Program-made: the position numbers and the translations under genes | Notes under the pieces: model-generated | The model's database searches: none | Told to the model about the DNA's origin: nothing | The model's input: the letters and a program-made list of their open reading frames with translations, nothing else | Source: Candidatus Enterousia sp. | GTDB lineage: Bacteria; Pseudomonadota; Alphaproteobacteria; Rs-D84 | Reading direction: 5' to 3' | DNA: 64,000 nucleotides | Assembly (NCBI GenBank): GCA_045634865.1 | Contig: JAZRBB010000002.1 | Location: 129,645 to 193,644 of the forward strand | Part shown: piece by piece, positions 44,739-62,503 of the stretch | Position numbering within the stretch: position 1 is the stretch's first letter | How the letters are laid out: each line of letters begins with the position of its first letter

Positions 44739-44951
44739 ATGAAATCTAACGATATCCAAACATTAAAAACTTCTGATATAACTAGTGAGGTTTTTGTTAT
44801 CGCCCCGGCACAAATTGAATTTATATCCGAAAGTTTTGGTAATGCAGTTGCAGAGGCGATGAATATGCGTCCTTTGGCACAAAAAATTCGTCAAATTGCG
44901 GCAGAAACATTGATAAAAACCTTGCAATCTGCAAAGAAAATGGGCGAATAA
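44739..44951 (+). CDS. Small hypothetical protein
   Basis: 70-aa ORF with GGGGGA RBS and downstream terminator. Confidence 0.5.
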   Translation: MKSNDIQTLKTSDITSEVFVIAPAQIEFISESFGNAVAEAMNMRPLAQKIRQIAAETLIKTLQSAKKMGE

Positions 44952-45034: not shown

Positions 45035-48000
45035 CTACTGTGCGGTTAAATCGTACACATTATAGGTTTCTTCGCCATACCTTATATGCAACTTGGATTC
45101 TGTTCCACCATTCATGGTCTTGCTACAGTTTTTGCACATATGCCCATAATATACCGTTCCGTCTATCTTTATTGCCAATGCTGGTGATGTTGGTTTTTCT
45201 GTATATAAGCATATAGCCGTATCACCTATGTGCAAGTATTTCTGACTGATACACGAATGTTCCCACTTTGCCCAGAATGTTTTGTGTCTAGTCGAGCCAA
45301 GCGCTATTGTCTTTTCAAGCTCACAATTTTCTGTCATTTCTTCGTTTTCACACCAGCCCAAGAATACATAATTATCTTTTCTCGGTTTAGACAAAGTTAT
45401 CGGCAAATCAAGCGCATTATAACGTTGCGGATCCGGATTAGTTGTAATAATCTGGTTGTGCGAATTTACCCACTTTGCTCCTTCTGTGTTTTTGTACACA
45501 ATGTTCGCATAACAAGCACCAGTTGTTGCATCCTTGAGTGGAAATTCAGCGCTACACCCAATCGCTTGCCATTGTGCATACATAGTCACAGTATTTTCTG
45601 CAGCATCAACAGATACCAAATTAAATACTTCCTCTTCATCCGTATAGAAATTGACGTCTGAATCATTGCACTCTGTGACACCTTTGCACCAGCCAACAAA
45701 ATCATAATCTGTTTTTTCAAATCCGTTTGATAACAAGGCCTTGCGTTCGTCATAATCAAATGTTTCTGGCAACATAGAACCACTCGTTGCACCATTACCA
45801 TCGAACAATACCGTATATGTTATTGGTGTCCATTTTGCATACATTGTGATTGTTGCATTATCTGATGAGGTCAAGTTAGAAACAACCGCTTCATTTACAT
45901 AGAAATTAGCATCTGTTGTATTGCATGCTGTTGCCCCCTTGCACCAGCCAACAAAATTCCAACCTGTTTTCTCAAACGCATTGGCACTCAATGCCTTTGA
46001 TTCATCATATGCAAATGTTTCATCTGCCATAGAACCTCTTGTTGCACCATTACCATCAAATACAACTTTGTATGTTATAGGCGACCATTTTGCATACAAT
46101 TTATTATCGCCACTCAATGCTGTTTCTGTGGTCACTGCATTACCTGTCACAGCAGCATTAACATACCAACCACCAAAATTATAGCCAGTCACAGAAGGCA
46201 ATTCTGGTAATGCAGCCAATGTGTATGTTGTCGCACCTTCTGAATATTGTTCTATGTGATTTTCAGGGTTAGCTATTCCAACTTTGTTAGAATCAAATTC
46301 AACCACAGCATAACATTGGGTAACATCGGTTAACTCACCATCATGATGGCTGTAATCATCTGGGCATACCATTTCCCATTGAGCGGTAAACTCTAAATCC
46401 CCCGTGGTTCCCTCTGAAACTTCACGTTCAACAAATGTCACCAACTCATCAGTTTCCTCATCAAATGCTAACTGTATAGTATTTGCCAAACAATCCGTCT
46501 TAGATTCTCCAGCCAAACACCATCCATTAAATGCGTGATGTGGTTTCTTGGGATTACGAAGTATGAATGGCAACATATCTGGTGTATATTGTGACGGATT
46601 CATCAAATATTCACCAGGATTTTCAGGATCTATTGGCCATGTAATATCTTCATCATCTACGTTTTGGTATGTTATATCCGCATAACACATACCAACTGTA
46701 TCATTATAATGAGCAAAACCATCTATACACAAAATTGATGTCTGACAACTGTGCCAATTACCAACTGTCGGTATGCTTTGTATATTAGATACAGGAGACA
46801 ACCTTGTCATTAAGTATTGAATTGTTCGTTGTTCTGGAGTTGTATACAAAGTATTCATCATCCAACTTAATACATCGACAGTTGAAATACGACTTAAATC
46901 ATCAGCCGATCCATCTGGTCCCATAATTGTATCGTTCCAAACAGATTTATAACAAATATCTACCGATTTTTCTATACACTTGCTATATTTACCATCTGGT
47001 GCACCATCTTCGTCTGGTGATTCTTGATTGTTAACCCATGCACAAGACACTATTTTAGCTTTTGCATTTGATATAGAGTCTTCCGCCGCTTCATAAGATG
47101 CAACATTATCAACCACCAAATAAGTATTTACACAAGCAAAATCATCAAGTGTTTGACCATATTGTACCAGCTCTGCCCCTTTTTCATAATATACTCCATC
47201 AGGTCTATAATTTTCACCAGACACACATTGACAATCTGTAACAAATTGTGCACCGATATCGGATACAGAACCGTACGGACATCTACGTTGACCCAATACA
47301 CCATTTTCTTCTCTACCTGTGCAGAAATAGTTTTCTTTACATGGTTCTGGCAGTCCGGTTTCTGGATCTGTATATTTTCCAGCGTTAGGTAACTCATAAC
47401 AATGATCTGCATTATCATCAGATATTCTTTTTATATTTGTTATTGGGTTTTTACCACAGCCATATCTACCCACAGAATCCTTGTGCATAGTCGTATATTC
47501 AATCAAACCAACTTCTAATTTATCAAACCCTGGGCAATATGAATATGAGTCCGCAAGAGGATCGTTTGCACCACACTTTACACAAACATAAGCCTCTGTA
47601 TCTGCATCTTTCTTTTTATAATAACCAGTATACATGCACTCTGATTCAGGAATTAACACTGAAACACCTGTATCTTCATCAATACACTGTCCATTTTCCC
47701 ATCTATAGTGCTTTGGTGTGCATCCAGGATCTGTATAACATTGTTTTGCACCAATATCAGAGTTTAATCCACTTGGACAAAGTATTTTTCCTTCTCCTTG
47801 ATGTTCCCAATCAAAAAATGCCTGTTCGTTTTCTGAAAACCTTGGCACAGGACCATTGGCCGGACAATAATAACCAGCAGGACACAGTGTATCACATTTA
47901 AACCTATTATCTCCTGCATCATAAAATCTCTCTTTACAATAATATCCACACTTATCAATCGATTTAGACGCCTCAGATAATGTCTGTAACCCATTATCCG

Positions 48001-50968
48001 TCGGAACATCTATGTATCTTCCTGCCCTGTCACTCAATATTTCCGAAACACCAACACCACAAGGTTTACAGCCATCATAAGTATCAGGATGTTCCGGGTC
48101 AACAGCATAATCTTGTTGTGTTCCCTTTGTATATTCACGATATGTGCCTTTCGGACAAGCGTATCTTCCAGGATATCTTGGTGAAACTTTACCACCAGGA
48201 CAATAATAACCAGCAGGACAATCAACACACTCTATTGTTGTAGTATTCAACGATGTACCCTTTTCACACACAGTATCAGCAACCATCATCGCGTAGTATT
48301 TAAAACTTTCTGGCGCTATTCGGTTTTCTTGTGCTTTTGTATCTATAACTGGTTTTGTATCTGGCGAAACCCATCCGGAACCATTACATGCATCTGATGT
48401 CTTATCCCCATTTGGGCATATCACACATTCTTTTTTATGTTTACGGTGGTCTAAAATCTGTACTTTATAACCAGCAGGACAACAGAACTCTGTTCCACGA
48501 CACCAGCCCGCAAATACATATCCATTTTGGACCTTACGTGAACTCATAGATTCCGGGTTTATTAAACCTTCTTCTGGTGTAACAGGGTTCGAGAAATTGT
48601 ACCCATGTTCTGTTGGTTGCCAATCTATTTCAAAAGAGTTTGCCGCAACATACTCACCATCATTGTTTCTGATGTGACCATACTGATAATACTGCGACCA
48701 ATAAGCGCATTCATCACGCCATCCACAAGCTTTTCCATGTTCTTGAATACCCATATCTAAATCTATATTCGAATACCATAAGCCAACATAATATGTGTCC
48801 AATTCACATCCCGAAGTCCCCAGATGTCGCACCATAAGCTCTGGATCATCATTTAATTCTGGGAACAACGTATCCTTATAAGGCATCATTGCTTCCACAG
48901 CACAAGAACAAGTGGTACGCTCTGCATTAACAGCTGCACCAACAACAGAACATGTATGGCACTCACCATTTGGCGTTCTGTATTGATTTTCTCCAAGCAC
49001 GCAAAGCTCTGGTTCACCTTGTATTATTAATATTGCACCAGTACAATAAGTCTTGTTTCTACATGCCATACAGTTTTCAGATTGACTGTCTATCGAACAT
49101 ATCAAATTACACGCTGCGTCTTCCTCTGAATTTCCGCTACCACATGGTTTGCATTCGTATGAACCATCAGAATAAGTACGCAAATCCAACCCTGCGCCAC
49201 AGCATGCTTTGTTCGGTTCACAGCATGCACGTGTTTTCGAGTTCCATTCGTATCCTTCTGGACAAGAACAAGCTGTTTTTGTTTCATTTGGTTGAATATA
49301 ATTGTTATCAACATTATCAGTTGTTACATAAACTGATGAATCAGAGCTATTACTTCCATATACAACAACATTTTGCTGTTCACAAATACTTATACCAACG
49401 TTTTCAGAAGTATGTTCGTCATACAACACACCGCCAGGACAATATGCACTAGCATTCAATCCAGCATCCACACAAGACTTACATTCTCCAGCAGCCTTAT
49501 TATAATATTGGCCAGCAGGGCAGAAAGATTTACACTGACTGGCCTCATAGCTTCCCATTTCTACAGTTGTCGAATTAGACTTATAATCATTACAATTTGT
49601 GCCTCCCAAAGAAAAGCCATTTGTATAATATCTAATCTGTTCCTGATCATACGTATCCGCATGATATTTTGTATCATTATACGTTGCGTCACGGAAAAAT
49701 GTTCCACCCAGACAATATGAACCAATCGGACAAGGTTCACAGGTTGTATAAAAAGCACGCCATCCACCCAAGAAATAATCTGATGTATAATAATCATTAG
49801 CATTTCTGCTGTGATGATTGTCATCATATTGATTCACAATATGCATATAATAACCAGCAGGGCAGGTATAAGAGCATCTGAACGAACCTGTATCAGAATG
49901 TCCCTTTAACAAACATGCTTGCTTTTCAGTATTCCATACTAAATCCGCCTTTATTTCATTTGCTTTTGTACAAGCACCGCTTGTTGTGATATTTTTTACT
50001 TCGGTTGTTGTACCCGCTATAAAACATTTTTTATGTGTTGTGTTCCACGCAAATCCGTTTGTCTTGGCAGTAATGCAATCAGACGAACTTTCGATTGTCA
50101 CAACATCATTGTATTTATCAGGACAAGCATTCATGCTATCCTTGTACTTTGCAGCAGTAAATATACCACCCAAACAGAAATTATCTGCATCACAAGTCTC
50201 TTTTGTATAAGTATATCCACAATACAAAGAAGACTTTATACCCGTCACTTCTTCATTAGTATCTTTATTGATGCACTTGCCATTTTCCCATTGATAATTA
50301 TGTTCCGTGTCCACAGAACGTTTTAATTGTTTACCAGGTCCCAAATCATAATAAGCACAAGCATCTATGCTGGTTGAATGTAATCCAAAACCCGCCTGTC
50401 TGGTTGCTCTGGTTGTTGTGTCCCCAGGACATTTACATTTACCAATAGATGTAAAACCACATTCAGATTCAGAAGTTATACCCACCACAACTTGATTTGT
50501 TTCAGAATCTATACATTGATTATTTCTCCACTTATAGTTTTTATTTTCTTCTGTCATTCCACCTTCTGCAACATTATTAACACCACCACACACAGTATCA
50601 TTTACTGTTTGTACAGACAAATACCTGCTTGGGCACCAATAGCCAACAGGACATTCTTTGCACCTGGGTTCACTACCAGACAAATCCAAATATTCACCAG
50701 GATCACAGTTTTTGGATATAATCGCACAATTATCATCATCGACATTATAATATCCTGTATCACATATCTTACGGTACACAGGGGTCATTTTGATATTTGC
50801 ACCACCAAATAAATCATACAACGCATCACAAGAAGACTCTCCAATTGCGACAAGCTCTCCATCAATCTCTTGGAACAGTGTATATTCATATTCCTCTGCC
50901 ATGACTTTGGCACCAGGCATCGCAAATGCAAATAAAGTTATCATAAATAATAATATACGTTTTAACAT
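45035..50968 (-). CDS. Secreted Cys-rich surface protein (GCC2/GCC3-like CPAGYYC repeats, InlB B/Flg_new repeats); candidate fibre base/anchor
   Basis: Signal peptide; C.PC..G.YCPG repeats; GY.F.GW...LYAKW repeats; distinct C-terminal domain. Confidence 0.8.
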   Translation of the reverse strand: MLKRILLFMITLFAFAMPGAKVMAEEYEYTLFQEIDGELVAIGESSCDALYDLFGGANIKMTPVYRKICDTGYYNVDDDNCAIISKNCDPGEYLDLSGSEPRCKECPVGYWCPSRYLSVQTVNDTVCGGVNNVAEGGMTEENKNYKWRNNQCIDSETNQVVVGITSESECGFTSIGKCKCPGDTTTRATRQAGFGLHSTSIDACAYYDLGPGKQLKRSVDTEHNYQWENGKCINKDTNEEVTGIKSSLYCGYTYTKETCDADNFCLGGIFTAAKYKDSMNACPDKYNDVVTIESSSDCITAKTNGFAWNTTHKKCFIAGTTTEVKNITTSGACTKANEIKADLVWNTEKQACLLKGHSDTGSFRCSYTCPAGYYMHIVNQYDDNHHSRNANDYYTSDYFLGGWRAFYTTCEPCPIGSYCLGGTFFRDATYNDTKYHADTYDQEQIRYYTNGFSLGGTNCNDYKSNSTTVEMGSYEASQCKSFCPAGQYYNKAAGECKSCVDAGLNASAYCPGGVLYDEHTSENVGISICEQQNVVVYGSNSSDSSVYVTTDNVDNNYIQPNETKTACSCPEGYEWNSKTRACCEPNKACCGAGLDLRTYSDGSYECKPCGSGNSEEDAACNLICSIDSQSENCMACRNKTYCTGAILIIQGEPELCVLGENQYRTPNGECHTCSVVGAAVNAERTTCSCAVEAMMPYKDTLFPELNDDPELMVRHLGTSGCELDTYYVGLWYSNIDLDMGIQEHGKACGWRDECAYWSQYYQYGHIRNNDGEYVAANSFEIDWQPTEHGYNFSNPVTPEEGLINPESMSSRKVQNGYVFAGWCRGTEFCCPAGYKVQILDHRKHKKECVICPNGDKTSDACNGSGWVSPDTKPVIDTKAQENRIAPESFKYYAMMVADTVCEKGTSLNTTTIECVDCPAGYYCPGGKVSPRYPGRYACPKGTYREYTKGTQQDYAVDPEHPDTYDGCKPCGVGVSEILSDRAGRYIDVPTDNGLQTLSEASKSIDKCGYYCKERFYDAGDNRFKCDTLCPAGYYCPANGPVPRFSENEQAFFDWEHQGEGKILCPSGLNSDIGAKQCYTDPGCTPKHYRWENGQCIDEDTGVSVLIPESECMYTGYYKKKDADTEAYVCVKCGANDPLADSYSYCPGFDKLEVGLIEYTTMHKDSVGRYGCGKNPITNIKRISDDNADHCYELPNAGKYTDPETGLPEPCKENYFCTGREENGVLGQRRCPYGSVSDIGAQFVTDCQCVSGENYRPDGVYYEKGAELVQYGQTLDDFACVNTYLVVDNVASYEAAEDSISNAKAKIVSCAWVNNQESPDEDGAPDGKYSKCIEKSVDICYKSVWNDTIMGPDGSADDLSRISTVDVLSWMMNTLYTTPEQRTIQYLMTRLSPVSNIQSIPTVGNWHSCQTSILCIDGFAHYNDTVGMCYADITYQNVDDEDITWPIDPENPGEYLMNPSQYTPDMLPFILRNPKKPHHAFNGWCLAGESKTDCLANTIQLAFDEETDELVTFVEREVSEGTTGDLEFTAQWEMVCPDDYSHHDGELTDVTQCYAVVEFDSNKVGIANPENHIEQYSEGATTYTLAALPELPSVTGYNFGGWYVNAAVTGNAVTTETALSGDNKLYAKWSPITYKVVFDGNGATRGSMADETFAYDESKALSANAFEKTGWNFVGWCKGATACNTTDANFYVNEAVVSNLTSSDNATITMYAKWTPITYTVLFDGNGATSGSMLPETFDYDERKALLSNGFEKTDYDFVGWCKGVTECNDSDVNFYTDEEEVFNLVSVDAAENTVTMYAQWQAIGCSAEFPLKDATTGACYANIVYKNTEGAKWVNSHNQIITTNPDPQRYNALDLPITLSKPRKDNYVFLGWCENEEMTENCELEKTIALGSTRHKTFWAKWEHSCISQKYLHIGDTAICLYTEKPTSPALAIKIDGTVYYGHMCKNCSKTMNGGTESKLHIRYGEETYNVYDLTAQ

Positions 50969-51121
50969 ATCACTGTACCCATTTTTTATCTCTGTATCTC
51001 TATATAACCTTGTTGGTCTCTAAAGATTTTATTTATTTTCCTTGGTCTGCGGTATGTTCTGGCTTATATTGCCAGAACTACCACAAACCTCTCTCACCTT
51101 GTTATATAACCCCATCAGATA

Positions 51122-52216
51122 CTAAGGTTGTTCAGAAGGTTGTTCAGATTGTTCTTCGATTTCGATTTTCCAACCTACGAACTTATAACCCTCATCAGCT
51201 GTAGGTTCGCTTGCCGGAGCTGTGAATCCACCACCGTATGTACATGTAGTGTTGATGTTATCACCCCAGTTAATATTAACCTCATTAGCAACACAGAAAT
51301 ATCTGTTGCCAACCATTTTTGCAAATCTATTACCATCAGCTGTTGTCTGATCTACAAAGAACGCCCCCACAGTTTGATCGCTTAACTGTGCACAACCAGT
51401 CTCACAAGCTGTCAGATCGTTATATTGTGCTGCTTCCAAAGTATCTCCGTTGATTGCATGACCATTTAAACTTGTTGCACGCATAAAGCAACCGACTTTG
51501 CTGCTATCAACAACAGAAGTTTTACAATGTGCTACACCACCAACAGTCAAATCACCCAAAATAGCGGTCCATGTAGTAGAACCATTTTGTGTGCTTGCTG
51601 TATATGCACCAGGTGTTGTTGGTAATTCATCTCCTATGATATCTGCAACAGAAGTTCTGGTATAACCAGCGTCACATCCATTAACTGCAACTATCTTTTC
51701 ACAGAATTGTTGTAATGTCGGATCTTCGTTATACGTTGCTGTACCAGAAACCAAAGAATAAGAAGATGCATGATCCATGGTGTAGTTCAAATCATTCAAA
51801 GAACAAGTTGCACTACAGCCATTTATACTGGTTGCATCCGCACCATCAGTGTACCCAGCTGGACAAGTTCCTAAACCTTGGGTGCTGACTGTACCATTGA
51901 CAATTTCTATTGAACCACCAGGGCAGTAATGTCCTGTGCTGTTACAGGTTGTACAACTTGCGTTTTTGATTTTTCCATCTTCTGGATCAATGTATGCATT
52001 GTCTGCAACATTAAAATAAGTACCAGCTGCGCAAGTATCTGTTACAAAAATCGCCCGCATCTGCAAAGGATTTTGTGCTGTAAAATCCCCTTGGAAATCT
52101 TCGCCAGAACAGCTTCCATTGTCTTCTGGTGAAATAATTGGCTTTATGTCAAGTGTGGCACCCATAGCTGGCAACACACTAAATAACACTCCACCTGTGA
52201 TTAACAACTTTTTCAT
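51122..52216 (-). CDS. Secreted Cys-rich protein; candidate fibre shaft subunit
   Basis: AAAGGAG RBS, signal peptide MKKLLITGGVLFSVLPAMG, truncated B-repeat at C-terminus. Confidence 0.8.
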   Translation of the reverse strand: MKKLLITGGVLFSVLPAMGATLDIKPIISPEDNGSCSGEDFQGDFTAQNPLQMRAIFVTDTCAAGTYFNVADNAYIDPEDGKIKNASCTTCNSTGHYCPGGSIEIVNGTVSTQGLGTCPAGYTDGADATSINGCSATCSLNDLNYTMDHASSYSLVSGTATYNEDPTLQQFCEKIVAVNGCDAGYTRTSVADIIGDELPTTPGAYTASTQNGSTTWTAILGDLTVGGVAHCKTSVVDSSKVGCFMRATSLNGHAINGDTLEAAQYNDLTACETGCAQLSDQTVGAFFVDQTTADGNRFAKMVGNRYFCVANEVNINWGDNINTTCTYGGGFTAPASEPTADEGYKFVGWKIEIEEQSEQPSEQP

Positions 52217-52327
52217 TTTTTCTCCTTTTTTTGTTTTTTGTTTTGTTTGCTCCATTCTGACATTAATGTCAAAATGCAATTTCTACTTCGTTCCGGTCTA
52301 TCTCACTTTCTCTACTTCGTTACCAGG

Positions 52328-55300: not shown

Positions 55301-58300
55301 ACCACCAGAACAAATCTTACATGCCGCTAATCCAGTCTCATCAGCATACGATCCATCTGCACATGCATATTTACCCGCCTGTTCATCAGTAAGTGTCGAT
55401 TGTTCATTCCATTCCACACTGACCCCCGGACAATAATGACCAACCGGACATGTCACACACTGATTGTTAGTCCCAATTGCTGACTGGTCTATGTACGAAC
55501 CCTCTGGGCACACCACACGTTCGGTATATGTCGTCGGACATGAGGCACCAGAGCATTCTATGCAAGTTTCTGATTTACCAGATAAATCATACGTTGTTCC
55601 AGCCAAACAGCATGCATAACCATTTGGACAGCAGTTGTTACCGGTATACACATCCCTTTCTTTTTTATCATCGTAATGATGTTCCCAATAATAACCTGTC
55701 GCACAACTTCCACCAATTGCTTGTGGCATATTTGGATCTGGACATGCGTTTGCCGTCTGTATCGTATCAACCCCAAAAGTATCCGACACTTCTTCGAATA
55801 TATCATCTGGTAACGAAGAACCTTCACCAAACATTTGTGCCAAATTATCAACAACTGTGCCAGTAGGTGCCAACATTAATTGTGCGATTGTACCATTACA
55901 TGCTGTGAACGCAGGTGAACACAAATTATATTTCTGGTCTTCTGGGTTATACTTACACATTACAACACGCGCACCAGCCTGGGTCAACAAATCATTCGAA
56001 GACATACCACCAGATACCCAACTGTTAAATGCAGTCGAATTTATTGCAGACACATACACATTCATACAAGCTTGATATTCCACATCATCTTTACCTTTGG
56101 TTGTGGTTAACATTACAACCTCTGGTGTTTTGGTTGTGGACATATTGCCAACAGAAATGTTCACAATTGAATTACCCGCAGGATTATACGCAGAACCACT
56201 AACGCAAGTACATGCAGACGCACCAGCAGCTGAGGTTGAACCAGCAAGGCAGGCGAATTTACCAGCTGTGTACACATTCGAATTGGTTGGATCCACAGAA
56301 AAATCACCATTTGCAAATGAATATGTCTTGCTGTCTGGACAGAAAGATCCAGCAGGGCAAGGTTCGCAAGAACCTGTTCCAACACCATTTACATATTCAA
56401 TACGTGCATATTCGCCCGCCACACAAGTTTGCGTATCACACCCAACGCTAGACTTTGTAATATTTGCACTACTGCTCAACGTGCTTATATCATTTATATA
56501 ACTATTATTTTGCTTGAATAATGTATTCCAATTTACAGTACTTTGAGTTAATCCCTTACGTCCCAATTCAATATCCAAAAAGTCATCTGCTGAAGCGGAA
56601 TTTCCCATAAACAAGCCAGCCATCGTCTGTAAATCTGACGCGTCACACACAGTCACCATTGATGAACAACCTGTATAATTACCCGTAGAAACATCATAAT
56701 TACAAGACATCAAGCCCGCTTCCATATTATTTGGATTACAAGGTTGATCCAAGCCCAGTGCATAATAATAATCCCCGAACTGTTTTTGCAATTCTGCCGC
56801 AGGAGTCGAACATTTCAGAGTTTCCAAATTTATCGAATATGCTGGTTTGATACATTCACTGTTTGATTCTATACCATCGCCATTAAAGTCTTTCCATACA
56901 GGATCTGCATTAGATGAATAGAAGAAATTATATGGTTCTTCTGTTTTGATTGGCACATAGTACGGACTGGTAGAATCAGAACTATATCCATGATATGATG
57001 GACATCTGAAATAACAATCATCAGCAGATTCAGCCCCCATATCACTATATGCTTTGTTTGGATTAGCAGATGAACAAGCGTGCGCACCATTATCTTCTGC
57101 TGTTAAATCAGAACCACCCATACTATTCATGCCATCACAATAGAAGTTTTGTGGACACTGTTGGCAACCCAAACTAACCCCATTATAGTAAGCATATTGA
57201 CCAGCAGGACAATTTACAATTTGTGGGCCGAAACTTGCATACGCATACAAATTGGCACCATACATACCATATACACTGGTTTCGCCTGAACCAGACCATG
57301 TTTCACTGAACCAGGTACAATCATTGCTGTTGGCGGCAGTATTCACATCACCTTGATAAGATGTACAAACATACCAACCGCGGAATTCTTGATTCCCAGA
57401 CGGCGAAGCCAACTGTATCGCACTATTAGAAACTTCATATGAATTCGCATCTGTATAATGATAGTAATTACCATCATACCAATAGTTTCCGGGGTTATAC
57501 GGCACAGATGTAGCCCCAGTATAATCATAAGTTATACTATATATCGGTGCCCATTTAGCATATAAATACAAATTTGTTTTGTTCGATACATTTAAATATC
57601 CACCATAGTTATAATCATACGCACTATAATCCGACCTGGCCGTCAAATACTTTGTAGGATATGTACAATCATAGTTCGCCGCAGCAGCCTCACTTGCGCT
57701 ATCAAATACACACCAACCTACAAAACCAAAATTATCTCTGGTTGGACTGTATAGCGATTTAATATAATCCACGCTGCTCCAAGAAATATCATTCGCATTG
57801 TTTTTGTAATACAATGTTGAACCACCAACATAGTATTGTATAGGATTGGTGGAAGCTTCAGCATCTGCATTCATACTGTCATAAGTGATACTGTATATCG
57901 GCGCCCACTTCGCATATAATGTTATATCGCCTGTTGAACCCGTAGCAATTTCTGTAATTGCAGAACCTGTGAATTGGTTATTATCATACCAACCAAGAAA
58001 AACGAAACCAGACTTTGTTGGCTCTCGCAATGTTATTGGTAGAGTGGTTTCTATTGTATAACTTGACGGATTGTCCGCATCATTCGTTGCATCAGCCATA
58101 TTGTTATATGTTATAGAGTATTCTTGTAAACACTGGGTTGCTGTTGAATTACTGTCATATCCATATGCCGCCTTTGCATTGCTAATATAGCCAGTTGGAC
58201 ACTGTTGAACAAAGCCTGTGTCACATGTATCACCAGAACCGCATACTGCACAGGCCTTGGTCGTTGAATCATATTTCAATCCTTGTTTACAATATATTTC

Positions 58301-61300
58301 ATCGTCTGCAACACACGCAACCTTGTTACCAAAATAATTGTCGAACCCAGTTGTTGCCTTATGCGTTCCGTCTGGACACGATGTGCGCAAAGAAGTATAG
58401 GAGAAAACTTCAGACATTTGATTGGTTATAGTTGTATTTGCATCAAGTCCTGCAAATAACGTGGCGGGGATATAATACTCATCAGGACCATAAAAATCAT
58501 AGACATCATGTCCCAGGTTACGACAATAATAAAACATATCATAAAACATTGCTTGAACAATCTGCCCGCGTATACCACTAAACAAATTCCCAGGTATCAA
58601 ACCAATTAACCTTGTACAGCCTGAAAACGTACCAGTAAACTTTGGTTGTATAGCACTCAAAGCATCAGAATCATAAGCCAAACCAGCCGTCGGGTCGTAT
58701 TGCATGGTTGCACCAATTGTCGGGAACAATGCACCCAATGAACCAGATATGCCAGCAACCTTTAATTGTGTGTTCAAACCGTAACCATCGGAGCCAAAAA
58801 CTATAGCAGCGATATAAGAACCTGTTGAATACCCCGTTGCCAAACCATCAAATTTTATATCATACGAACGAGCGGTGGTATTTGTATATGTGTGAAAATA
58901 ATATCGTTTCGTTGTATTATTCGTGCGATCAATACGTTCAATTGTGCCATCACCCCAATCAATCCAGAATACACCCGCTGCAGACATTTGGAACTGGAAA
59001 TAATCATTTGTACCAGTTCCGTCTGACACAATGTCATTTGTTGTTGTTATTTGGAATTTATTTTCGAATGTCCCCCATTTGGCATACAATGTTACACTGC
59101 CATCAACCTCTGGGACTAACGTTTTAACCTCAGCACCCGTAAAATCAGCATTTTTATACCAACCCATAAATTTATAATTTGCTTTGCTTGGATCTTTTAA
59201 CGTTACTGTTTCATCATACAGAGACGGATTATCCGAATCATTTGATCCACCATTTAAATTATACGTTATTGAATTCGCACTTAACGTCCATTTCGCATAT
59301 AATGTTTGACCTCCTGTTGTAGTAATTTGCGTTACTGTATCAATAAATCTATCATCATCATACCAACCAGAGAATGTATAGAAACGTTTCGTCGGATTAT
59401 GCAATGTTATCGGTAAATCTTCAACTGTATACGTCAACGGATTATCTGAACTATTCGTTGCACCAGCCATATTGTTGTATGTTATAGTGTATCCCTGTAA
59501 ACACTGTGTTGCTGTTGAATCACTATCATATCCATATGCCGCCTTTGCATTGCTAATATAGCCAGTTGGACACTGTTGTACAAAACCAGTATTACATGTA
59601 TCATTAGAAGAACACCAATCACAGCTCCTAGTTGCAGAATTATATTTTGATCCACGTGCACAATATATTTCATCATCTGCAACACATGCAACTCTGCCAT
59701 CAAAATAACTTTCAAATCCAGTTGTTGCCTGACGCGTTCCATCTGGACATGATGTGCTCAAACCGGATTCGTAAAAAACCCCACTCATCGGATTGACTAA
59801 ATCCGTATTCACGTCAATTCCAGCAAATAAAGTAACAGGTATCGTACCGGTCAATCTACGACACCCTCTAAATGTAGAGTTAAACAGATCCCGTACTAGT
59901 ACACCCGATATACCACTAAACAATCCTGCAGGTATTGAGGTTACATAAGTATAAACAAACGTGGCACTAAACATCCCGCGAATCGGTTGCCCCCTTACAC
60001 CACTAAACAGTCCTGCTGGTATCGAACCTGTTAAGCTAGAACCCAAAAATGTACCACTAAAACTTGGTTGTATACTATAGATTGGCAACCCACAAAAGTC
60101 ACTGTATGGATTTAATCCGGCCGTCGGATCGTATTGATCAGTTGCACCAATCGTTGGAAACAATGCCCCCAAAGAACCAGATATGCCCGCAACAAGCGTG
60201 CCCGTAGGACCAACAACCGTTCTATTTTCATTGACCGAAGATGTAGCACTGGCACCATAAAGATACTGAAAACTCACCGCAGGGAGAGCACAGTCATTAT
60301 ACCCTGTTGCCCGACCATCAAATTTTATATCATATGAACGGGCAATGGTATTTGTATACGTATGCGAATAGTATTGTTCCGTTGTGTTATTTGTACGATC
60401 AATACGTTCAATTGTGCCATCACCCCAATCAACCCAGAATACACCCGCAGCAGACATTCCGAATACAAAATAATCACCTGTACCAGTTCCATCTGAAACT
60501 ATGTTATCAGTTGTTGTTATTTGGAATTTATTCTCAAACGTTCCCCATTTGGCATACAACGTAACATCACCATCGGTTTCATGAACCAAAGTTTTAACCT
60601 CGACACCCGTAAAATCAGCATTTTTATACCAACCCATAAATTTATAATTTGCTTTGCTTGGGTCTTTTAACGTTGTTGATGTCAAGTATGTTGACGAATT
60701 ATCTGGATTATTCGTTCCACCATTCAGATTATAAGTTATCGAATTTGGGGCAATACATGCAGTAGAAGTCGAATTGCCCCCCATTCCATTTGGACAGGTA
60801 TAAATCGCACCCAACTCTGGACACGTATAACCAGATTGACAGGTAACACACGCATTGGTATTTGTATCAAACCTTTCACCCTTTTTACAATAAACCTTGT
60901 CAGCCGCGACACATGCAACATAACCATCAAAATAACTTTCAAATCCAGTTGTTGCCTGATGTGTTCCATCTGGACAAGATGTAAGTAAACTCGTGTCTTC
61001 AAAAGGATCGATTATGGTTGTACTAATAATACCCGCAAATAAAGTAACAGGTATCGTACCGGTCAAACTATAACACCTTTTAAATATAAGATCAAACATT
61101 TGTGGAGCAGCCTGCCCACCCACACCATTAAATAACTCATCAGGTATGGTACCGGCTAAAAAAGTACATTGTTCAAACACACCTACAAAGCGTGGTTGTA
61201 TAGCCTTCAACGCAGAAGAATCGGCAACCAAACCAATCGTAGCATCTGCACCACCAATCGTCGGAAACAACGCCCCCAAAGAACCAGATATACCTGCAAC

Positions 61301-61954
61301 CTTTTCATACGTCGTGCCAGAAACAGTTCTATTTTCATTGACCGACACAGTATCATCACCAGCATATCCAAACAGTATTGCTTGACTAAATAAAAAATCT
61401 TCATACCCTGTTGCCTGACCATCAAATTTTATATCATACGAACGAGCGGTGGTATTTGTATACGTATGCGTATAATACTGGTATGCTGTATTACCACGTC
61501 TATCAATAACCTCTATACCACTATTATCACCCCAATCAACATAAAACACACCCTCCGCCGACATCTTGAATGCAAAATAATCGTTACTGCCTGTTCCATC
61601 TGAAACTATATCATCAGTCGTTGTTATTTGGAATTTACTCTCAAACGTTCCCCATTTTGCGTAGTATGTTTTATCACCAGACGTACTGTTTGCGGATATC
61701 CATTTCACTGGATCACCCGTAAAATTGCTGTTTTCGTACCAACCTTTGAACACATAGCCAGACTTTATCGGTAAATCTAACACTTTTAATGTATCATCGT
61801 CGTATGTCGCTGGGTTAGATACACCAGATGCCAATGTCCCCCCATCCAATTCATACGTTATGTTATATGTCGTCGCAAATGCAGGTGAAACCAGCATCAC
61901 AAAGGCAATTACCAATGCTTTCAGAACACGTTTTATACTATTTTGGAACAACAT
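52328..61954 (-). CDS. Giant secreted adhesin-like protein (Flg_new repeats, PKD-like DWGDG domains, LRR-like and Cys-rich modules); candidate fibre tip
   Basis: Signal peptide ending PAFA; repeated YNLNGG...GYVFKGWY...LYAKW, VDWGDG, IP.TLFAGI, CPAG.YC. Confidence 0.8.
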   Translation of the reverse strand: MLFQNSIKRVLKALVIAFVMLVSPAFATTYNITYELDGGTLASGVSNPATYDDDTLKVLDLPIKSGYVFKGWYENSNFTGDPVKWISANSTSGDKTYYAKWGTFESKFQITTTDDIVSDGTGSNDYFAFKMSAEGVFYVDWGDNSGIEVIDRRGNTAYQYYTHTYTNTTARSYDIKFDGQATGYEDFLFSQAILFGYAGDDTVSVNENRTVSGTTYEKVAGISGSLGALFPTIGGADATIGLVADSSALKAIQPRFVGVFEQCTFLAGTIPDELFNGVGGQAAPQMFDLIFKRCYSLTGTIPVTLFAGIISTTIIDPFEDTSLLTSCPDGTHQATTGFESYFDGYVACVAADKVYCKKGERFDTNTNACVTCQSGYTCPELGAIYTCPNGMGGNSTSTACIAPNSITYNLNGGTNNPDNSSTYLTSTTLKDPSKANYKFMGWYKNADFTGVEVKTLVHETDGDVTLYAKWGTFENKFQITTTDNIVSDGTGTGDYFVFGMSAAGVFWVDWGDGTIERIDRTNNTTEQYYSHTYTNTIARSYDIKFDGRATGYNDCALPAVSFQYLYGASATSSVNENRTVVGPTGTLVAGISGSLGALFPTIGATDQYDPTAGLNPYSDFCGLPIYSIQPSFSGTFLGSSLTGSIPAGLFSGVRGQPIRGMFSATFVYTYVTSIPAGLFSGISGVLVRDLFNSTFRGCRRLTGTIPVTLFAGIDVNTDLVNPMSGVFYESGLSTSCPDGTRQATTGFESYFDGRVACVADDEIYCARGSKYNSATRSCDWCSSNDTCNTGFVQQCPTGYISNAKAAYGYDSDSTATQCLQGYTITYNNMAGATNSSDNPLTYTVEDLPITLHNPTKRFYTFSGWYDDDRFIDTVTQITTTGGQTLYAKWTLSANSITYNLNGGSNDSDNPSLYDETVTLKDPSKANYKFMGWYKNADFTGAEVKTLVPEVDGSVTLYAKWGTFENKFQITTTNDIVSDGTGTNDYFQFQMSAAGVFWIDWGDGTIERIDRTNNTTKRYYFHTYTNTTARSYDIKFDGLATGYSTGSYIAAIVFGSDGYGLNTQLKVAGISGSLGALFPTIGATMQYDPTAGLAYDSDALSAIQPKFTGTFSGCTRLIGLIPGNLFSGIRGQIVQAMFYDMFYYCRNLGHDVYDFYGPDEYYIPATLFAGLDANTTITNQMSEVFSYTSLRTSCPDGTHKATTGFDNYFGNKVACVADDEIYCKQGLKYDSTTKACAVCGSGDTCDTGFVQQCPTGYISNAKAAYGYDSNSTATQCLQEYSITYNNMADATNDADNPSSYTIETTLPITLREPTKSGFVFLGWYDNNQFTGSAITEIATGSTGDITLYAKWAPIYSITYDSMNADAEASTNPIQYYVGGSTLYYKNNANDISWSSVDYIKSLYSPTRDNFGFVGWCVFDSASEAAAANYDCTYPTKYLTARSDYSAYDYNYGGYLNVSNKTNLYLYAKWAPIYSITYDYTGATSVPYNPGNYWYDGNYYHYTDANSYEVSNSAIQLASPSGNQEFRGWYVCTSYQGDVNTAANSNDCTWFSETWSGSGETSVYGMYGANLYAYASFGPQIVNCPAGQYAYYNGVSLGCQQCPQNFYCDGMNSMGGSDLTAEDNGAHACSSANPNKAYSDMGAESADDCYFRCPSYHGYSSDSTSPYYVPIKTEEPYNFFYSSNADPVWKDFNGDGIESNSECIKPAYSINLETLKCSTPAAELQKQFGDYYYALGLDQPCNPNNMEAGLMSCNYDVSTGNYTGCSSMVTVCDASDLQTMAGLFMGNSASADDFLDIELGRKGLTQSTVNWNTLFKQNNSYINDISTLSSSANITKSSVGCDTQTCVAGEYARIEYVNGVGTGSCEPCPAGSFCPDSKTYSFANGDFSVDPTNSNVYTAGKFACLAGSTSAAGASACTCVSGSAYNPAGNSIVNISVGNMSTTKTPEVVMLTTTKGKDDVEYQACMNVYVSAINSTAFNSWVSGGMSSNDLLTQAGARVVMCKYNPEDQKYNLCSPAFTACNGTIAQLMLAPTGTVVDNLAQMFGEGSSLPDDIFEEVSDTFGVDTIQTANACPDPNMPQAIGGSCATGYYWEHHYDDKKERDVYTGNNCCPNGYACCLAGTTYDLSGKSETCIECSGASCPTTYTERVVCPEGSYIDQSAIGTNNQCVTCPVGHYCPGVSVEWNEQSTLTDEQAGKYACADGSYADETGLAACKICSGGMSTGGATGSTSDSACSTTTCVDGSQYDPAGTTFVSGAGKQSALVTFYDMKKNETYQSCTKAYVSVLDNTVFANGIANATADELSKSGMRLIMCEYDGKTGKYTSCSNAIPACDTSYSYMMLNYTTEQIATAIATQYGAPALPNVIMGNADASGALGIDGVRNFYGDASDGIPTCAASCPVGYEWESYYDDKNAETVYTGNTCCPDGYACCLAGYEYDMEEGRCVDCSKNDTCTATYTKSFVCPAGEYINQIGQNEYQCVTCDAGSYCPGIIWDVTTTFDSGKYTCAQNTFSGSGATECSACPTGSTSSAGSTSLSACTCPSGSATNPAGNSIVNVSVGNMSTIKTPEVITLTDDNDNEYSACANVYVSAVNMTAFNNWYTGGMSSDDLLTQAGARVIICKYNATDSKYNECTPAFTACNGQIAQLMLAPTGTIISNLAQMFGGGSSLSDDSFEQVSNTLGIDTLQTANACPDTGMPQMIRGSCATGYYWENYYDDKKERDVYTGNNCCPDGYACCLAGTKYDATTNSCQPCSGSSCPTTYTESVKPITCPATNGYYTSPAPINTTGGPGVIELDMQNMNLGTESSYGSSQDECVAIRVYYENSTPFMSAGGMENMTASDYVNAGASVAFCKYNPNTGHYDGDCTPKYSLCSTDNVMSLFASGNSVGVMKAVLGITNDNTIGNYFTESVSDLSKDSALNRCSGIVCPDASDFSNMSLSGAGMMQMGDGMEGSYGSTPNDCVAMRVYYNDGSVLFDGQSPSMDINDWIDAGASVAFCKYNTGNVATDLCTPKYSLCDTDNMMTLMSAGNAVGIMQAMLDINGTSALGTYFTQSPSSLASATATSRCVAASTTCSAGQYADANLECQACPEGYYCTGLNSTGGSDLTVEDNGKYACPSGSTSNGSTSSCTCDVGYSWNTSTHLCEGNTVHINWGDGVNTTCTYGSSYTVPDAPKTIPQGYTFIGYRIVSSVLNNNDNSNSNEQDNGEEIGKGE

Positions 61955-62123
61955 TTGTGATAAATCTCCCTTTACTTTCACAGAAATCTTAGAACAAAAT
62001 ATTACAGTTATGCAACAACTTTATTTATTAGTAAAATCAATTAATTATACAAACCAACACTTCGCCACAACACCCATCATCATCCGAATCGGTTTTATTT
62101 CATATAAGTATAAATTCTTGTCA

Positions 62124-62503
62124 CAGTCCGAGAGCAAAATTCTCCCTTTGGAGGGAGTACCCGTAGGGGGAGGGAGGGTTCAATTGTTATTGTTCCAGAC
62201 GTTCATTATTACAAACGCACCAGAATACCCGCCCTGCAAGTTCCCCTCCTGCGGAGGGGTGCCGGAACGGCAGGGTGGTCTTTCTCGTGTTATCTGGAAT
62301 CAAAGACCAACCTCCCTCCCAGCTACGCCCCCCCCAAGGGGAGAATTGCGTTTGTGGGGAAAATCGCTCCCGCTAGGGACATTCTTGGTTCCCCGTCTTG
62401 TGACTGCGTCACAATCCACCCCGCCATGGGCGGGGAATTAACATGGGTTCAGTCCGAGAGCAAAATTCCCCCTTTGGAGGGAGCACCCGCAGGGGGAGGG
62501 AGG
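62124..62503. repeat. Cluster of GC-rich REP-like palindromic repeats
   Basis: 54-bp direct repeat 62124-62177/62450-62503, inverted copy about 62311-62348, related palindromes at 62240-62280 and 62400-62439. Confidence 0.75.

What the first reader, a model, noticed from the sequence alone, without database searches (positions are those of the whole stretch)
45035..61954. Candidate new surface-fibre system: tip/shaft/base subunits joined by a split, complementing B-repeat domain
Seen in the sequence: three co-oriented genes, each with a signal peptide. Complete InlB-B/Flg_new-like repeats inside these proteins read I.Y/W...P...GY.F.GW...[T/V]LYA.W. The ~3200-aa and ~364-aa proteins end in the same half-repeat, which stops right after the GY.F.G[WY] strand and runs into a disordered tail (NTVHINWGDGVNTTCTYGSSYTVPDAPKTIPQGYTFIGYRIV, ~52405-52532; NEVNINWGDNINTTCTYGGGFTAPASEPTADEGYKFVGWKI, ~51170-51286). 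The ~364-aa and 1977-aa proteins begin, just after the signal peptide, with a short segment containing a Cys and a strand resembling the missing LYAKW strand (SCSGEDF...PLQMRAIF, ~52042-52159; SSCDALYDLFGGANIKMTPVY, ~50770-50896). So gene 1 has only the acceptor half, gene 2 has donor plus acceptor, and gene 3 has only the donor plus a different C-terminal domain. Inference: head-to-tail strand complementation, in which the small protein self-polymerises, the giant adhesin caps one end and the third protein terminates or anchors the fibre. The lone Cys in each half (TTCTY and SC) could form an inter-subunit disulfide. This is analogous to, but built from a different fold than, chaperone-usher or type V pili. 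No usher, chaperone or sortase gene is adjacent.
Basis: partly seen in the sequence, partly recalled or inferred. Interest (0 to 1): 0.9.

Follow-up and report, generated by a model that had tools for sequence, protein, structure and literature searches.

The report
Split-domain docking of surface proteins
Three neighbouring secreted proteins of a small gut bacterium carry complementary halves of one small domain, and comparison with relatives suggests that the halves join between proteins, locked by a disulfide, to hang a giant adhesin-like protein on a surface anchor, a joining principle I did not find described.

Summary
g1 (52328-61954) and g2 (51122-52216) end in the first ~45 residues of a Flg_new (InlB B-repeat) domain ("ACC"). 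g2 and g3 (45035-50968) begin, right after the signal peptide, with a segment matching its second half ("D"). The 0.9-Mb genome holds exactly these two ACC and two D. Relatives carry the same Cys-bearing domain unsplit inside giant proteins, with ACC followed by D and one Cys in each half.

In 14 gene pairs of 12 related genomes, an ACC-ending gene is directly followed by a D-first gene. That gene ends in the ~72-aa C-terminal domain of g3 ("CTD-X"). The Cys of ACC and the Cys of the neighbour's D are both present (11/11) or both absent (3/3), and the Cys counts of the mature proteins fit a disulfide between the two proteins.

Best reading (0.6): fold complementation in trans docks CTD-X-less cargo (g1, via g2) onto a CTD-X anchor (g3).

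The usual pattern in relatives is two genes (cargo plus a small adaptor), not three. No complex prediction was available, so physical binding is inferred and not shown.

The parts
52328..61954 (-). g1: giant secreted protein (3208 aa from ATG 61954; the ORF is open from GTG 61981). It holds 5 complete Flg_new repeats, three copies of an 'FQITTT...VDWGDG' plus BspA-like leucine-rich module and many Cys-rich modules. It carries an acceptor half only.
52385..52540 (-). g1 acceptor half (ACC): CEGNTVHINWGDGVNTTCTYGSS...GYTFIGYRIV, the first ~45 positions of a Flg_new repeat. An 18-aa polar tail (52331-52384) follows.
51122..52216 (-). g2: 364-aa secreted protein (ATG 52216; the ORF is open from TTG 52279). 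It has a donor half at the N-terminus, a Cys-rich middle and an acceptor half at the C-terminus.
52010..52120 (-). g2 donor half (D): NGSCSGEDFQGDFTAQNPLQMRAIFVTDTCAAGTYFN, starting 14 residues after the predicted signal-peptide cut.
51158..51295 (-). g2 acceptor half (ACC): CVANEVNINWGDNINTTCTYGGG...GYKFVGWKI, followed by an 11-aa acidic tail that a 12-nt tandem repeat encodes.
45035..50968 (-). g3: 1977-aa secreted protein with a donor half at the N-terminus, Cys-rich modules, 4 Flg_new repeats and CTD-X at the C-terminus. It has no acceptor half.
50744..50836 (-). g3 donor half (D): SSCDALYDLFGGANIKMTPVYRKICDTGYYN.
45038..45253 (-). g3 CTD-X: a ~72-aa C-terminal domain (KYLHIGD...YGEETYNVYDLTAQ). 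It is shared with two leucine-rich-repeat proteins of the same genome and with the small donor-first adaptors of relatives.
44920..44936 (-). Terminator-like hairpin after g3. None was found in the g1-g2 (111 nt) or g2-g3 (153 nt) gaps, which fits one transcription unit.

Best explanation
g1, g2 and g3 are parts of a surface-protein docking system built on a naturally split, Cys-bearing Flg_new (InlB B-repeat-like) domain. The first half (ACC: strands 1-2, the long loop, and the GYxFxGW strand) ends a cargo protein. The second half (D: a Cys-bearing segment plus the LYAKW-like last strand) sits just behind the signal peptide of the partner.

Proposed sequence of events:
1. All three proteins are exported by Sec, and their Cys-rich modules are oxidised in the periplasm.
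2. D of one protein completes ACC of another in trans. One disulfide then locks the joint, between the Cys of ACC strand 2 ('TCTY') and the Cys of D.
3. In this genome the most likely product is a defined chain: g1 (cargo or tip, ACC only), then g2 (linker, D plus ACC), then g3 (D plus CTD-X).
4. CTD-X, the usual C-terminal domain of large surface proteins in this clade, supplies whatever sorting or anchoring the ACC-ending proteins lack.

What is shown: the two halves, their homology to an unsplit domain, their exclusive occurrence in these three genes, the recurrent ACC-gene then D-CTD-X-gene pairs in relatives, and the Cys covariation and parity.

What is inferred: physical binding, the disulfide, the order g1-g2-g3 (as opposed to g1-g3 with g2 closed on itself), a surface location, and the role of CTD-X.
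For: 1. Split of one domain.
- ACC matches Flg_new profile positions 9-41 of 65.
- In relatives an ACC is followed within 8-17 residues by a Cys-bearing D-like second half in one chain, in 9 of the 11 internal ACCs examined. Further such cases are L041, L040, L043, L046 and L047.
- The D HMM hits that second half at E 3.1e-07.
- The unsplit L041 domain passes the Pfam Flg_new cut-off (35.7 bits against 27).
- In the InlB B repeat, strands 2 and 3 are the edge strands (PMC8900821, passages read). The missing last strand would therefore lie in the middle of the sheet (my inference).

2. Position.
- 74 of the 157 proteins in hand have a full ACC. It ends within 20 aa of the C-terminus in 71 of those 74.
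- 51 proteins have a D, always single and starting at residue 19-54.
- None of the 12 ACC proteins of at least 1000 aa has a D.

3. Own genome. There are exactly 2 ACC (g1, g2) and 2 D (g2, g3), in adjacent co-oriented genes.

4. Partner genes.
- I took the best ACC locus of each of 30 genomes. 17 of these have a terminal ACC.
- 12 of those 17 are followed on the same strand by a D-first and/or CTD-X-ending gene.
- Over all loci fetched there are 14 such pairs in 12 genomes. In 13 the partner is a 188-259-aa adaptor made of a signal peptide, D, one Cys-rich module and CTD-X. In one it is a 2830-aa protein with D and CTD-X, like g3.

5. Covariation between different proteins.
- All 11 pairs with Cys in ACC strand 2 have Cys in the neighbour's D.
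- All 3 pairs without it (TVTY or SVEY) have a Cys-less D (NAA.FE.LG). There are 0 mismatches in 14.
- In Cys-bearing pairs both mature proteins have odd Cys counts: 15 or 13 upstream (7 of 7 determined) and 7 in the adaptor.
- In Cys-less pairs both are even: 14 upstream (2 of 2 determined) and 6 in the adaptor.

6. Against cis-only pairing.
- The upstream 400-480-aa proteins carry their own Cys-less N-terminal D' together with a Cys-bearing ACC.
- G099 holds a three-part set whose Cys states match at each joint.

7. ACC and CTD-X exclude each other. 0 of 74 ACC proteins has CTD-X. CTD-X itself is in 100 of 107 genomes of the genus.

8. Co-occurrence. By my count from the tables, 35 of 57 ACC-positive genomes are D-positive, against 9 of 94 ACC-negative genomes. 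The genomes are related, so this is not an independent test.

9. Plausibility. The genome encodes BamA, a DsbA-like protein and a secretin. g2 has 16 Cys (even) and g3 has 111 (odd).
Against: - No model coordinates were visible either, so neither binding nor Cys-Cys distance was examined.
- AF2 models mature g2 alone with confident termini (pLDDT 83-92 at the N-terminus, 86-91 at the C-terminus). That is compatible with D packing on ACC of the same chain.
- Profile-profile comparison of D with the window's own complete repeats puts the D strand on the last strand, but only weakly (E 0.021, probability 2%, 10 columns).
- g1 has 134 Cys, an even number, where the simple parity rule predicts an odd one. 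Its leucine-rich modules contain consensus Cys that may stay free, so I read this as neutral.
- 5 of 17 terminal-ACC loci have no partner gene downstream.
- ACC is not always terminal. In P0075, P0109, L026, L016, L017, L019 and L078 it is followed by a ~190-aa 'LPxGYTxLEYI' domain.
- G069 has 25 ACC matches, the one I examined (L026) being of this ACC-plus-LamG type, and no detectable D. An ACC can therefore exist without a recognisable D.
- The three Cys-less pairs are related to each other and may trace back to one or two events.
- g2 homologues in L001 and L002 stand alone among housekeeping genes.
Confidence: 0.6

Rival explanations
1. Closure in cis. In proteins that hold both halves (g2 and its family) the N-terminal D completes the C-terminal ACC of the same chain. 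This amounts to a circularly permuted Flg_new with the variable Cys-rich body as an insertion. In this genome only g1 (ACC) and g3 (D) would then pair in trans, and g2 would be a separate closed protein.
For: - The termini are the most conserved parts of the g2 family.
- D+A proteins with a Cys-bearing D nearly all have even Cys counts: 28 even and 2 odd, and one of the odd ones is a signal-peptide Cys by my reading.
- The AF2 monomer model is confident at both termini.
- g2 homologues stand alone in L001 and L002.
Against: - Proteins with a Cys-less D' and a Cys-bearing ACC in the same chain have odd Cys counts, and a matching adaptor is encoded next door.
- A closed g2 would have no CTD-X and no free half to attach by.
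- The middle of the family varies by whole Cys-rich modules, which is easier to accommodate in an open chain.
- AF2 monomers are known to self-complement donor strands (recalled, not tested here).
Confidence: 0.13
2. g2 polymerises head to tail into a shaft of many copies, capped by g1 and terminated or anchored by g3.
For: - g2 has a Cys-bearing D and a Cys-bearing ACC, so self-pairing is formally allowed.
- Some relatives hold many D+A paralogues. G145 has 11 ACC and 13 D matches.
- L038_2850 (G142) has Cys-less D' and Cys-less ACC and could also self-pair.
Against: - There is no evidence of oligomers.
- In G099 and in the G040-type pairs the middle protein has mismatched Cys states at its two ends, which argues for defined chains.
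- No assembly machinery (usher, chaperone, sortase) was found in the genome.
- This genome has a single g2 gene.
Confidence: 0.13
3. No pairing at all. The conserved ends are export, sorting or recombination cassettes of a variable multigene family. The ACC end would be a C-terminal signal read by some machinery, and the conserved 3' end, gap and 5' end would be a substrate for gene shuffling.
For: - There are up to 43 ACC matches per 0.9-Mb genome, many at contig ends.
- The family has conserved termini and a variable middle.
- ACC occurs without a detectable D in G069.
Against: This reading does not explain several observations:
- why the two ends are the two halves of one known fold in the order that completes it;
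- the Cys covariation and parity between adjacent genes;
- the mutual exclusion of ACC and CTD-X.
Confidence: 0.09
4. Relics of gene fission. A giant repeat protein was cut inside a repeat, and the halves have no function of their own.
For: Unsplit versions exist inside giant proteins of relatives.
Against: - The split is kept in 54 of 107 genomes of the genus and in proteins of 112-4396 aa with unrelated bodies.
- Each downstream part has gained a signal peptide.
- The Cys covary between the two halves.
Confidence: 0.03

Closest known systems
Donor-strand complementation or exchange in chaperone-usher pili (Fim, Pap) (recalled knowledge)
   Same: An incomplete fold in one subunit is completed by an N-terminal segment of the next subunit. 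Which subunit has only an acceptor, both parts, or only a donor sets the order of the chain.
   Different: - The fold here is a Flg_new (beta-grasp-like) domain, not an Ig-like pilin.
- The acceptor is a small terminal half-domain on otherwise unrelated, often giant proteins.
- The donor is half a domain, not one strand.
- A disulfide is inferred to lock the joint.
- No usher or PapD-like chaperone is in the genome.
Cohesin-dockerin docking on anchoring scaffoldins (cellulosomes) (recalled knowledge)
   Same: Diverse cargo proteins carry a small terminal module that docks on a receptor module of a cell-surface anchor protein. Some adaptors here carry two donor segments, like a small scaffold.
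   Different: - Cohesin and dockerin are two complete domains that bind non-covalently with Ca2+. Here the two modules are halves of one domain, and a covalent lock is inferred.
- No cohesin or dockerin Pfam match was listed for g1-g3 at E up to 0.01.
SpyTag/SpyCatcher and related engineered split adhesin domains (recalled knowledge)
   Same: A split domain reconstitutes from two polypeptides and becomes covalently locked.
   Different: Those are laboratory constructs from a CnaB2 domain with an isopeptide bond. This one would be natural, in a different fold, with a disulfide.
Flg_new / InlB B repeat (PF09479; PMC8900821, passages read)
   Same: g1 and g3 hold complete repeats. The two halves align to the first ~41 and the last ~25 profile positions.
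   Different: The variant here carries a Cys pair (strand 2 and second half) and occurs split over two gene products. No such split is mentioned in the passages I read or in the listings of my searches.
Type V pili (FimA/Mfa1), archaeal threads and bundling pili, TasA, and Bacillus Ena fibres with disulfide-linked N-terminal connectors (recalled knowledge)
   Same: Strand exchange or N-terminal connectors join the subunits. Ena fibres add disulfides.
   Different: Those are homopolymeric fibres of dedicated pilin-like subunits in other folds. A polymer is not shown here.
C-terminal sorting domains such as the type IX secretion CTD (recalled knowledge), compared with CTD-X
   Same: A ~70-80-aa all-beta domain sits at the extreme C-terminus of many large surface proteins of one clade.
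   Different: There is no sequence or fold match to any solved structure and no NCBIfam or Pfam match. The clade is alphaproteobacterial, and the machinery is unknown.

Membership tests
Flg_new / List_Bact_rpt (PF09479, TIGR02543) | Match to the whole ~65-position profile above the curated cut-off | tested here: met
   This holds for the complete repeats. g1 has 5 stretches (E 3.3e-58) and g3 has 4 (E 1.9e-26), and TIGR02543 matches both.
Flg_new / List_Bact_rpt (PF09479) | The terminal pieces of g1 and g2 are complete domains | tested here: not met
   g2's end covers profile positions 9-41 of 65 at 18.3-21.3 bits (cut-off 27). g1's end covers 10-37 at E 0.039. The chains end 11-18 residues after GW or GY. 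The donor segments give no Pfam match on their own.
Flg_new, unsplit Cys-bearing variant | Acceptor-type first half and donor-type second half contiguous in one chain, with one Cys in each | tested here: met
   This was seen in relatives only. 9 of 11 internal ACCs show it. Further cases are L041, L040, L043, L046, L047 and P0118. L041 scores 35.7 bits on PF09479.
Chaperone-usher pilus | Outer-membrane usher (PF00577) and PapD-like chaperone (PF00345) | tested here: not met
   Neither has a match in the own genome, which is 93% complete. The control genomes gave matches.
Chaperone-usher pilus | Ig-like pilin subunit lacking its last strand | tested here: not met
   No pilin family was among the Pfam matches of g1-g3 at E up to 0.01. 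The incomplete unit is Flg_new-like.
Sortase-assembled pilus | Sortase (PF04203) and a C-terminal LPXTG-type signal | tested here: not met
   No sortase match in the genome. The three C-termini show no LPXTG plus hydrophobic tail.
Type V pilus (FimA/Mfa1) | Lipoprotein precursor, proteolytic removal of the N-terminal strand, FimA-type fold | not tested
   No FimA-type family was listed by Pfam for g1-g3. No dedicated search was made.
Cohesin-dockerin | Cohesin and dockerin domains | tested here: not met
   Neither was listed by Pfam for g1-g3 at E up to 0.01.
Fold complementation between subunits (mechanism, not a family) | The acceptor lacks an element of its fold that the partner's N-terminal segment supplies in trans | tested here: inconclusive
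   The sequence anatomy, the gene neighbourhood and the Cys covariation (14 of 14 pairs) point to it. No complex prediction or coordinates could be obtained.
Type IX secretion CTD or other curated sorting domains (for CTD-X) | Match to a curated C-terminal sorting-domain model | tested here: not met
   NCBIfam lists only TIGR02543 for g3. Pfam at E up to 1 gives nothing on CTD-X itself in the last 121 aa. The PDB sequence profile's best hit is E 0.17 and the best Foldseek hit is E 0.42.

The most novel reading that the evidence does not exclude
This clade of gut alphaproteobacteria has evolved a general, modular and covalent 'plug and socket' for building its surface. Any secreted protein that ends in the first half of a Cys-bearing Flg_new domain is captured by any protein that starts with the matching second half. 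The joint is locked by a disulfide. Cys-bearing and Cys-less flavours may act as orthogonal connectors, so defined chains (tip, linker, anchor) or variable heteropolymers are assembled without an usher, chaperone or sortase, and are held by a new C-terminal anchor domain (CTD-X). It would be a natural counterpart of engineered split-domain ligation tags.
Probability: 0.45. Interest if true: 0.9.

Novelty: new variant of a known kind. Interest (0 to 1): 0.8.

Why it matters
If the halves really join in trans, this is a new way for a diderm bacterium to build its surface. Cargo proteins of any size, here a 3200-aa adhesin-like protein, would be hung on a small set of anchor proteins by completing a split beta-grasp-like domain and locking it with a disulfide. 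None of the known pilus or sortase machineries would be involved.

It would explain how dozens of secreted proteins in these 0.8-1.1-Mb genomes do without the clade's usual C-terminal domain. Some genomes have up to 43 acceptor matches.

It would give a function to a variant of the widespread but poorly understood Flg_new repeat.

It could also supply a small natural pair of covalent protein connectors (about 45 aa plus about 30 aa) of interest to protein engineers.

The claim is directly testable with two short fragments and a non-reducing gel.

Tried and rejected
Complex prediction. I designed one job with three chains: the g1 C-terminal 113 aa with alignment A5, mature g2 with alignment A3, and g3 residues 25-130, with g2 as the partner. 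It was meant to ask whether g2 bridges g1 and g3 or closes on itself. Searches were answered 'machine busy'. One search was answered 'not available, do not try again'. Nothing was folded, so I draw no conclusion from it.

Structure of g2. AF2 with 44 sequences gave mean pLDDT 78.6 and pTM 0.59. No coordinates are given, so cis contacts between D and ACC and the Cys-Cys distance could not be read. Foldseek against the PDB found 0 matches at E up to 0.001 (best 0.44).

Structure of the g3 end. CTD-X (model residues ~110-183) came out at pLDDT 85-92 with six strands. The preceding repeat was poor (pLDDT below 50) because the alignment does not cover it. Foldseek against the PDB found 0 matches at E up to 0.001 (best 0.42). 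The PDB sequence profile's best hit was E 0.17. The unsplit L041 domain had no PDB sequence match at E up to 0.01.

Profile-profile comparison with the window's nine complete repeats (A8). The register is as expected, but the result is weak for D (E 0.021, 10 columns). For ACC only the GYxFxGW strand aligned (E 3.3e-05).

Cys parity.
- It is useful for small proteins.
- It is not informative for giant ones. Among the 11 giant acceptor-only proteins, my reading gives 6 even and 5 odd. g1 is even at 134.
- My first regex-based donor classification missed many donors, and I replaced it with an HMM.
- The crude Cys counts for L053-L055 were wrong by one, because the cut removed the first Cys. One search is the count I use.

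Export route. The only secretin sits beside a TcpQ-like gene, which suggests a type IVb-pilus-like system. I could not link it to these proteins.

Promoter scan. It found no more than chance (76 found against 67.8 +/- 8.6 expected).

Literature. Four searches listed no paper on a split Flg_new domain, on strand complementation in this fold, or on surface proteins of these bacteria. I saw listings and abstract starts only, except for PMC8900821, where I read passages. Supplements were not looked at.


Full report
**What is in the window.** Three co-oriented minus-strand genes fill 45035-61981.
- g1 is 3217 aa from GTG 61981. By homology to P0075 and P0109 it more likely starts at ATG 61954.
- g2 is 385 aa from TTG 52279. 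It more likely starts at ATG 52216 (364 aa), where all homologues start with MKKLLITGG.
- g3 is 1977 aa.
- secA and dnaE follow downstream.
- A terminator-like hairpin lies only after g3 (44920-44936), and none lies in the 111-nt and 153-nt gaps between the genes.

The window lies in an 899,630-base, 11-contig genome estimated 93% complete. Relatives found through g2 are titled Alphaproteobacteria bacterium UBA1185, UBA1218 and Candidatus Enterousia sp.. The genome encodes an Omp85/BamA protein, a DsbA-like protein and one secretin. It is therefore a diderm that can oxidise Cys-rich proteins in its periplasm.

Pfam finds 5 complete Flg_new repeats in g1 and 4 in g3. The last ~45 residues before the short polar tails of g1 and g2 match only the first part of the profile: positions 9-41 of 65 for g2 (18.3-21.3 bits, cut-off 27) and 10-37 for g1. 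I call this piece ACC. Its pattern is C-x5-[IV]x[IV]xW...TC[TS][YF]G...P...GYxFxGW.

g2 and g3 carry a second conserved piece 14-20 residues behind the predicted signal-peptide cut, which I call D. It has a Cys, then 10-25 residues, then h-x-h-x-A/P-x-[YFW], then the first Cys of a CxxGxY module.

I searched HMMs of the two pieces against all 6,891 six-frame ORFs of the genome.
- ACC is found only in g2 (8.1e-24) and g1 (2.9e-21).
- D is found only in g2 (1e-12) and g3 (3.8e-07).

The genome thus holds two sockets and two plugs, in three neighbouring genes, in the order ACC / D+ACC / D.

**The pieces are two halves of one domain.** g2 belongs to a family in which the two termini are the best conserved parts and the middle varies by whole Cys-rich modules.

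Giant proteins of relatives contain the same Cys-bearing variant of Flg_new unsplit. An ACC-type first half is followed after 8-17 residues by a second half of the form '..aG..i..gC....lGvysGts..i.AqW'. I saw this in 9 of 11 internal ACCs in an unselected set, and in L041, L040, L043, L046, L047 and P0118. The D model hits that second half (E 3.1e-07). The unsplit L041 domain passes the Pfam cut-off (35.7 bits).

Each half of the unsplit domain has one Cys at the positions kept in ACC ('TCTY') and in D. D is therefore the whole second half, not only the last strand. In the solved InlB B repeat the fold resembles a beta-grasp in which strands 2 and 3 are the two parallel edge strands (PMC8900821, passages read). 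From that I infer that the last strand lies in the middle of the sheet, so an ACC alone would be a broken sheet.

A direct profile-profile comparison of D with the window's own nine complete repeats puts the D strand on the LYAKW strand. It is weak, though (E 0.021).

**Distribution.**
- ACC occurs in 57 of 151 genomes sampled from the order and in 54 of 107 of the genus, with up to 43 matches per genome.
- A profile search of 1.84 billion representatives gave 610 proteins at E up to 0.001.
- Among the 157 proteins I held, 74 have a full ACC, and 71 of those end within 20 residues of it. They range from 112 to 4396 aa.
- 51 proteins have a D, always single and starting at residue 19-54.
- 44 have both halves (335-668 aa).
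- None of the 12 ACC proteins of at least 1000 aa has a D.

**The partner genes.** g3's last ~72 residues (CTD-X) also end two leucine-rich-repeat proteins of the same genome. They occur in 107 of 151 genomes, including 100 of 107 in the genus, usually several per genome and on proteins of up to 6344 aa. None of the 74 ACC proteins has CTD-X.

I took the best ACC locus of each of 30 genomes. 17 of them have a terminal ACC. In 12 of those 17 the next gene on the same strand starts with D and/or ends in CTD-X. In 5 it does not.

Over all loci fetched there are 14 such pairs in 12 genomes.
- In 13 the partner is a 188-259-aa 'adaptor' made of a signal peptide, D, one Cys-rich module and CTD-X.
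- In one (L035) it is a 2830-aa protein with D at the start and CTD-X near the end, like g3.
- Some adaptors carry two D segments: L058 by HMM, and L056, L066 and L067 by eye.

**Covariation between different proteins.** In the 14 pairs, the Cys of ACC strand 2 and the Cys of the neighbour's D are both present (11 pairs) or both absent (3 pairs: L038, L052, L057, with TVTY or SVEY facing NAA.FE.LG). There are no mismatches.

Counts of Cys in the mature proteins agree.
- In the Cys-bearing pairs the upstream protein has 15 or 13 Cys (7 of 7 that I could cut), and the single-D adaptor has 7. Both are odd.
- In the Cys-less pairs the numbers are 14 (2 of 2) and 6. Both are even.

This is what an inter-protein disulfide predicts. 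The three Cys-less pairs are related, so the number of independent events may be one or two.

In the window both joints are Cys-bearing. g2 has 16 Cys and g3 has 111, as expected. g1 has 134, which is even and does not fit. However, g1 contains leucine-rich modules with consensus Cys that may stay free.

**Cis or trans.**
- The upstream 400-480-aa proteins of the common pairs carry their own N-terminal D' without Cys, next to a Cys-bearing ACC, and their Cys count is odd. Pairing within the chain does not account for that, whereas pairing with the adaptor does.
- G099 has exactly two ACC and two D matches, like the window's genome. They are a 1108-aa ACC-only protein without the Cys, a 420-aa protein with Cys-less D' and Cys-bearing ACC, and a 190-aa adaptor with Cys-bearing D and CTD-X. 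The Cys states match at each joint. This is an independent tip-linker-anchor set, and its linker should not polymerise with itself if the Cys states must match.
- For g2 itself both ends are Cys-bearing, so three options remain open: a closed monomer, a linker between g1 and g3, or a homopolymer.

I rank the linker reading first. A closed g2 would have no means of attachment, and the gene order, the stoichiometry and the G099 analogue all fit a chain.

**Caveats.**
- ACC is not always terminal. In P0075, P0109, L026, L016, L017, L019 and L078 it is followed directly by a ~190-aa domain starting 'LPxGYTxLEYI', and in P0137 that domain precedes it.
- G069 has 25 ACC matches, the one I examined (L026) being of this type, and no detectable D. 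An ACC-like half can therefore exist without a recognisable D.
- g2 homologues in L001 and L002 stand alone.
- Co-occurrence of D with ACC is strong: 35 of 57 ACC-positive genomes against 9 of 94 ACC-negative ones, by my count from the tables. All 21 genomes with a D match at E up to 1e-10 are ACC-positive. The genomes are kin, however, and the D models are less sensitive than the ACC model.

**Comparison with known systems.**
- The logic is that of donor-strand complementation in chaperone-usher pili. The fold, the half-domain donor, the inferred disulfide and the absence of usher, chaperone and sortase set it apart.
- Functionally it resembles cohesin-dockerin docking on an anchoring scaffoldin, and chemically the engineered split-domain ligation tags. 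Both comparisons are recalled.
- CTD-X is a confidently predicted six-stranded domain (pLDDT 85-92). It has no fold or sequence match in the PDB and no Pfam or NCBIfam model.
- My four literature searches listed nothing on a split Flg_new domain or on the surface proteins of these bacteria.

**Verdict.** I rate it a new variant of a known kind of mechanism, with confidence 0.6 and interest 0.8.

Noticed in passing
window 45038-45253 (-); own genome C2:256155-256388 (+) and C8:32615-32851 (-): CTD-X is a ~72-aa C-terminal domain found in 100 of 107 genomes of the genus, on proteins of up to 6344 aa. It is predicted as six beta-strands at pLDDT 85-92. It has no Pfam, NCBIfam or PDB match. It may be a clade-specific sorting or anchoring domain in its own right.
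   Followed up: partly
window ~60600-61500, ~58200-59000, ~56900-57800 (g1); own genome C2:253767-256388 and C8:32615-34489: An N-terminal module 'FQITTT...F.F.MSA.G.F.VDWGDG' followed by BspA-like leucine-rich repeats occurs three times in g1. It also opens two CTD-X proteins of the genome and several giant proteins of relatives (P0070, P0075, P0145, L070). Pfam lists no family for it.
   Followed up: no
P0075, P0109, P0137; L016:2095-2955 (-), L017:2123-3046 (-), L019:667-1449 (+), L026:925-2052 (-), L078:1269-3005 (-): An acceptor half is fused directly to a ~190-aa domain starting 'LPxGYTxLEYI...' and ending '...NVVGMYD...F'. The look is concanavalin/LamG-like by recall and was not tested. 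G069 has 25 acceptor matches, the one I examined (L026) being of this type, and no detectable donor.
   Followed up: partly
L056:1448-2221 (+), L058:484-1248 (+), L066:700-1413 (+), L067:475-1260 (-): These adaptors carry two donor segments, each followed by a Cys-rich module, before CTD-X. They could hold two cargo proteins, like a small scaffold.
   Followed up: partly
L021:1039-1887 (-) and P0137 N-terminus: Runs of 'HTHTHTHTHT' are encoded just upstream of the signal peptides. These are dinucleotide repeats in the 5' region and could be phase-variation switches.
   Followed up: no
many proteins; in g2 about window 51300-51560: A conserved module 'G.YCWC/R...W(V/I)F...C..C...C...FR.A.F' precedes the acceptor half in many family members. 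Its function is unknown.
   Followed up: no
window 62124-62177 and 62450-62503: A 54-nt direct repeat occurs in two copies 326 nt apart (94% identity) upstream of g1, each containing a terminator-like hairpin. Its ~24-nt core recurs at 15 or more places in the genome, several of them near contig ends.
   Followed up: partly
window 51124-51148: A 12-nt tandem repeat (2.1 copies) encodes the EQPSEQP tail of g2. The tails after the acceptor half are short, polar and variable (N-, Q- or E-rich) in all family members.
   Followed up: no
own genome C3:234783-237372 (L079:6784-9373): The genome's only secretin (PF00263) lies directly after a TcpQ-like gene (PF10671), which suggests a type IVb-pilus-like or related system. 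No link to g1-g3 was found.
   Followed up: partly
coordinates near contig starts and ends: Many acceptor, donor and CTD-X matches lie within a few hundred bases of contig ends. These multigene families evidently break the assemblies, so copy numbers are lower bounds.
   Followed up: no
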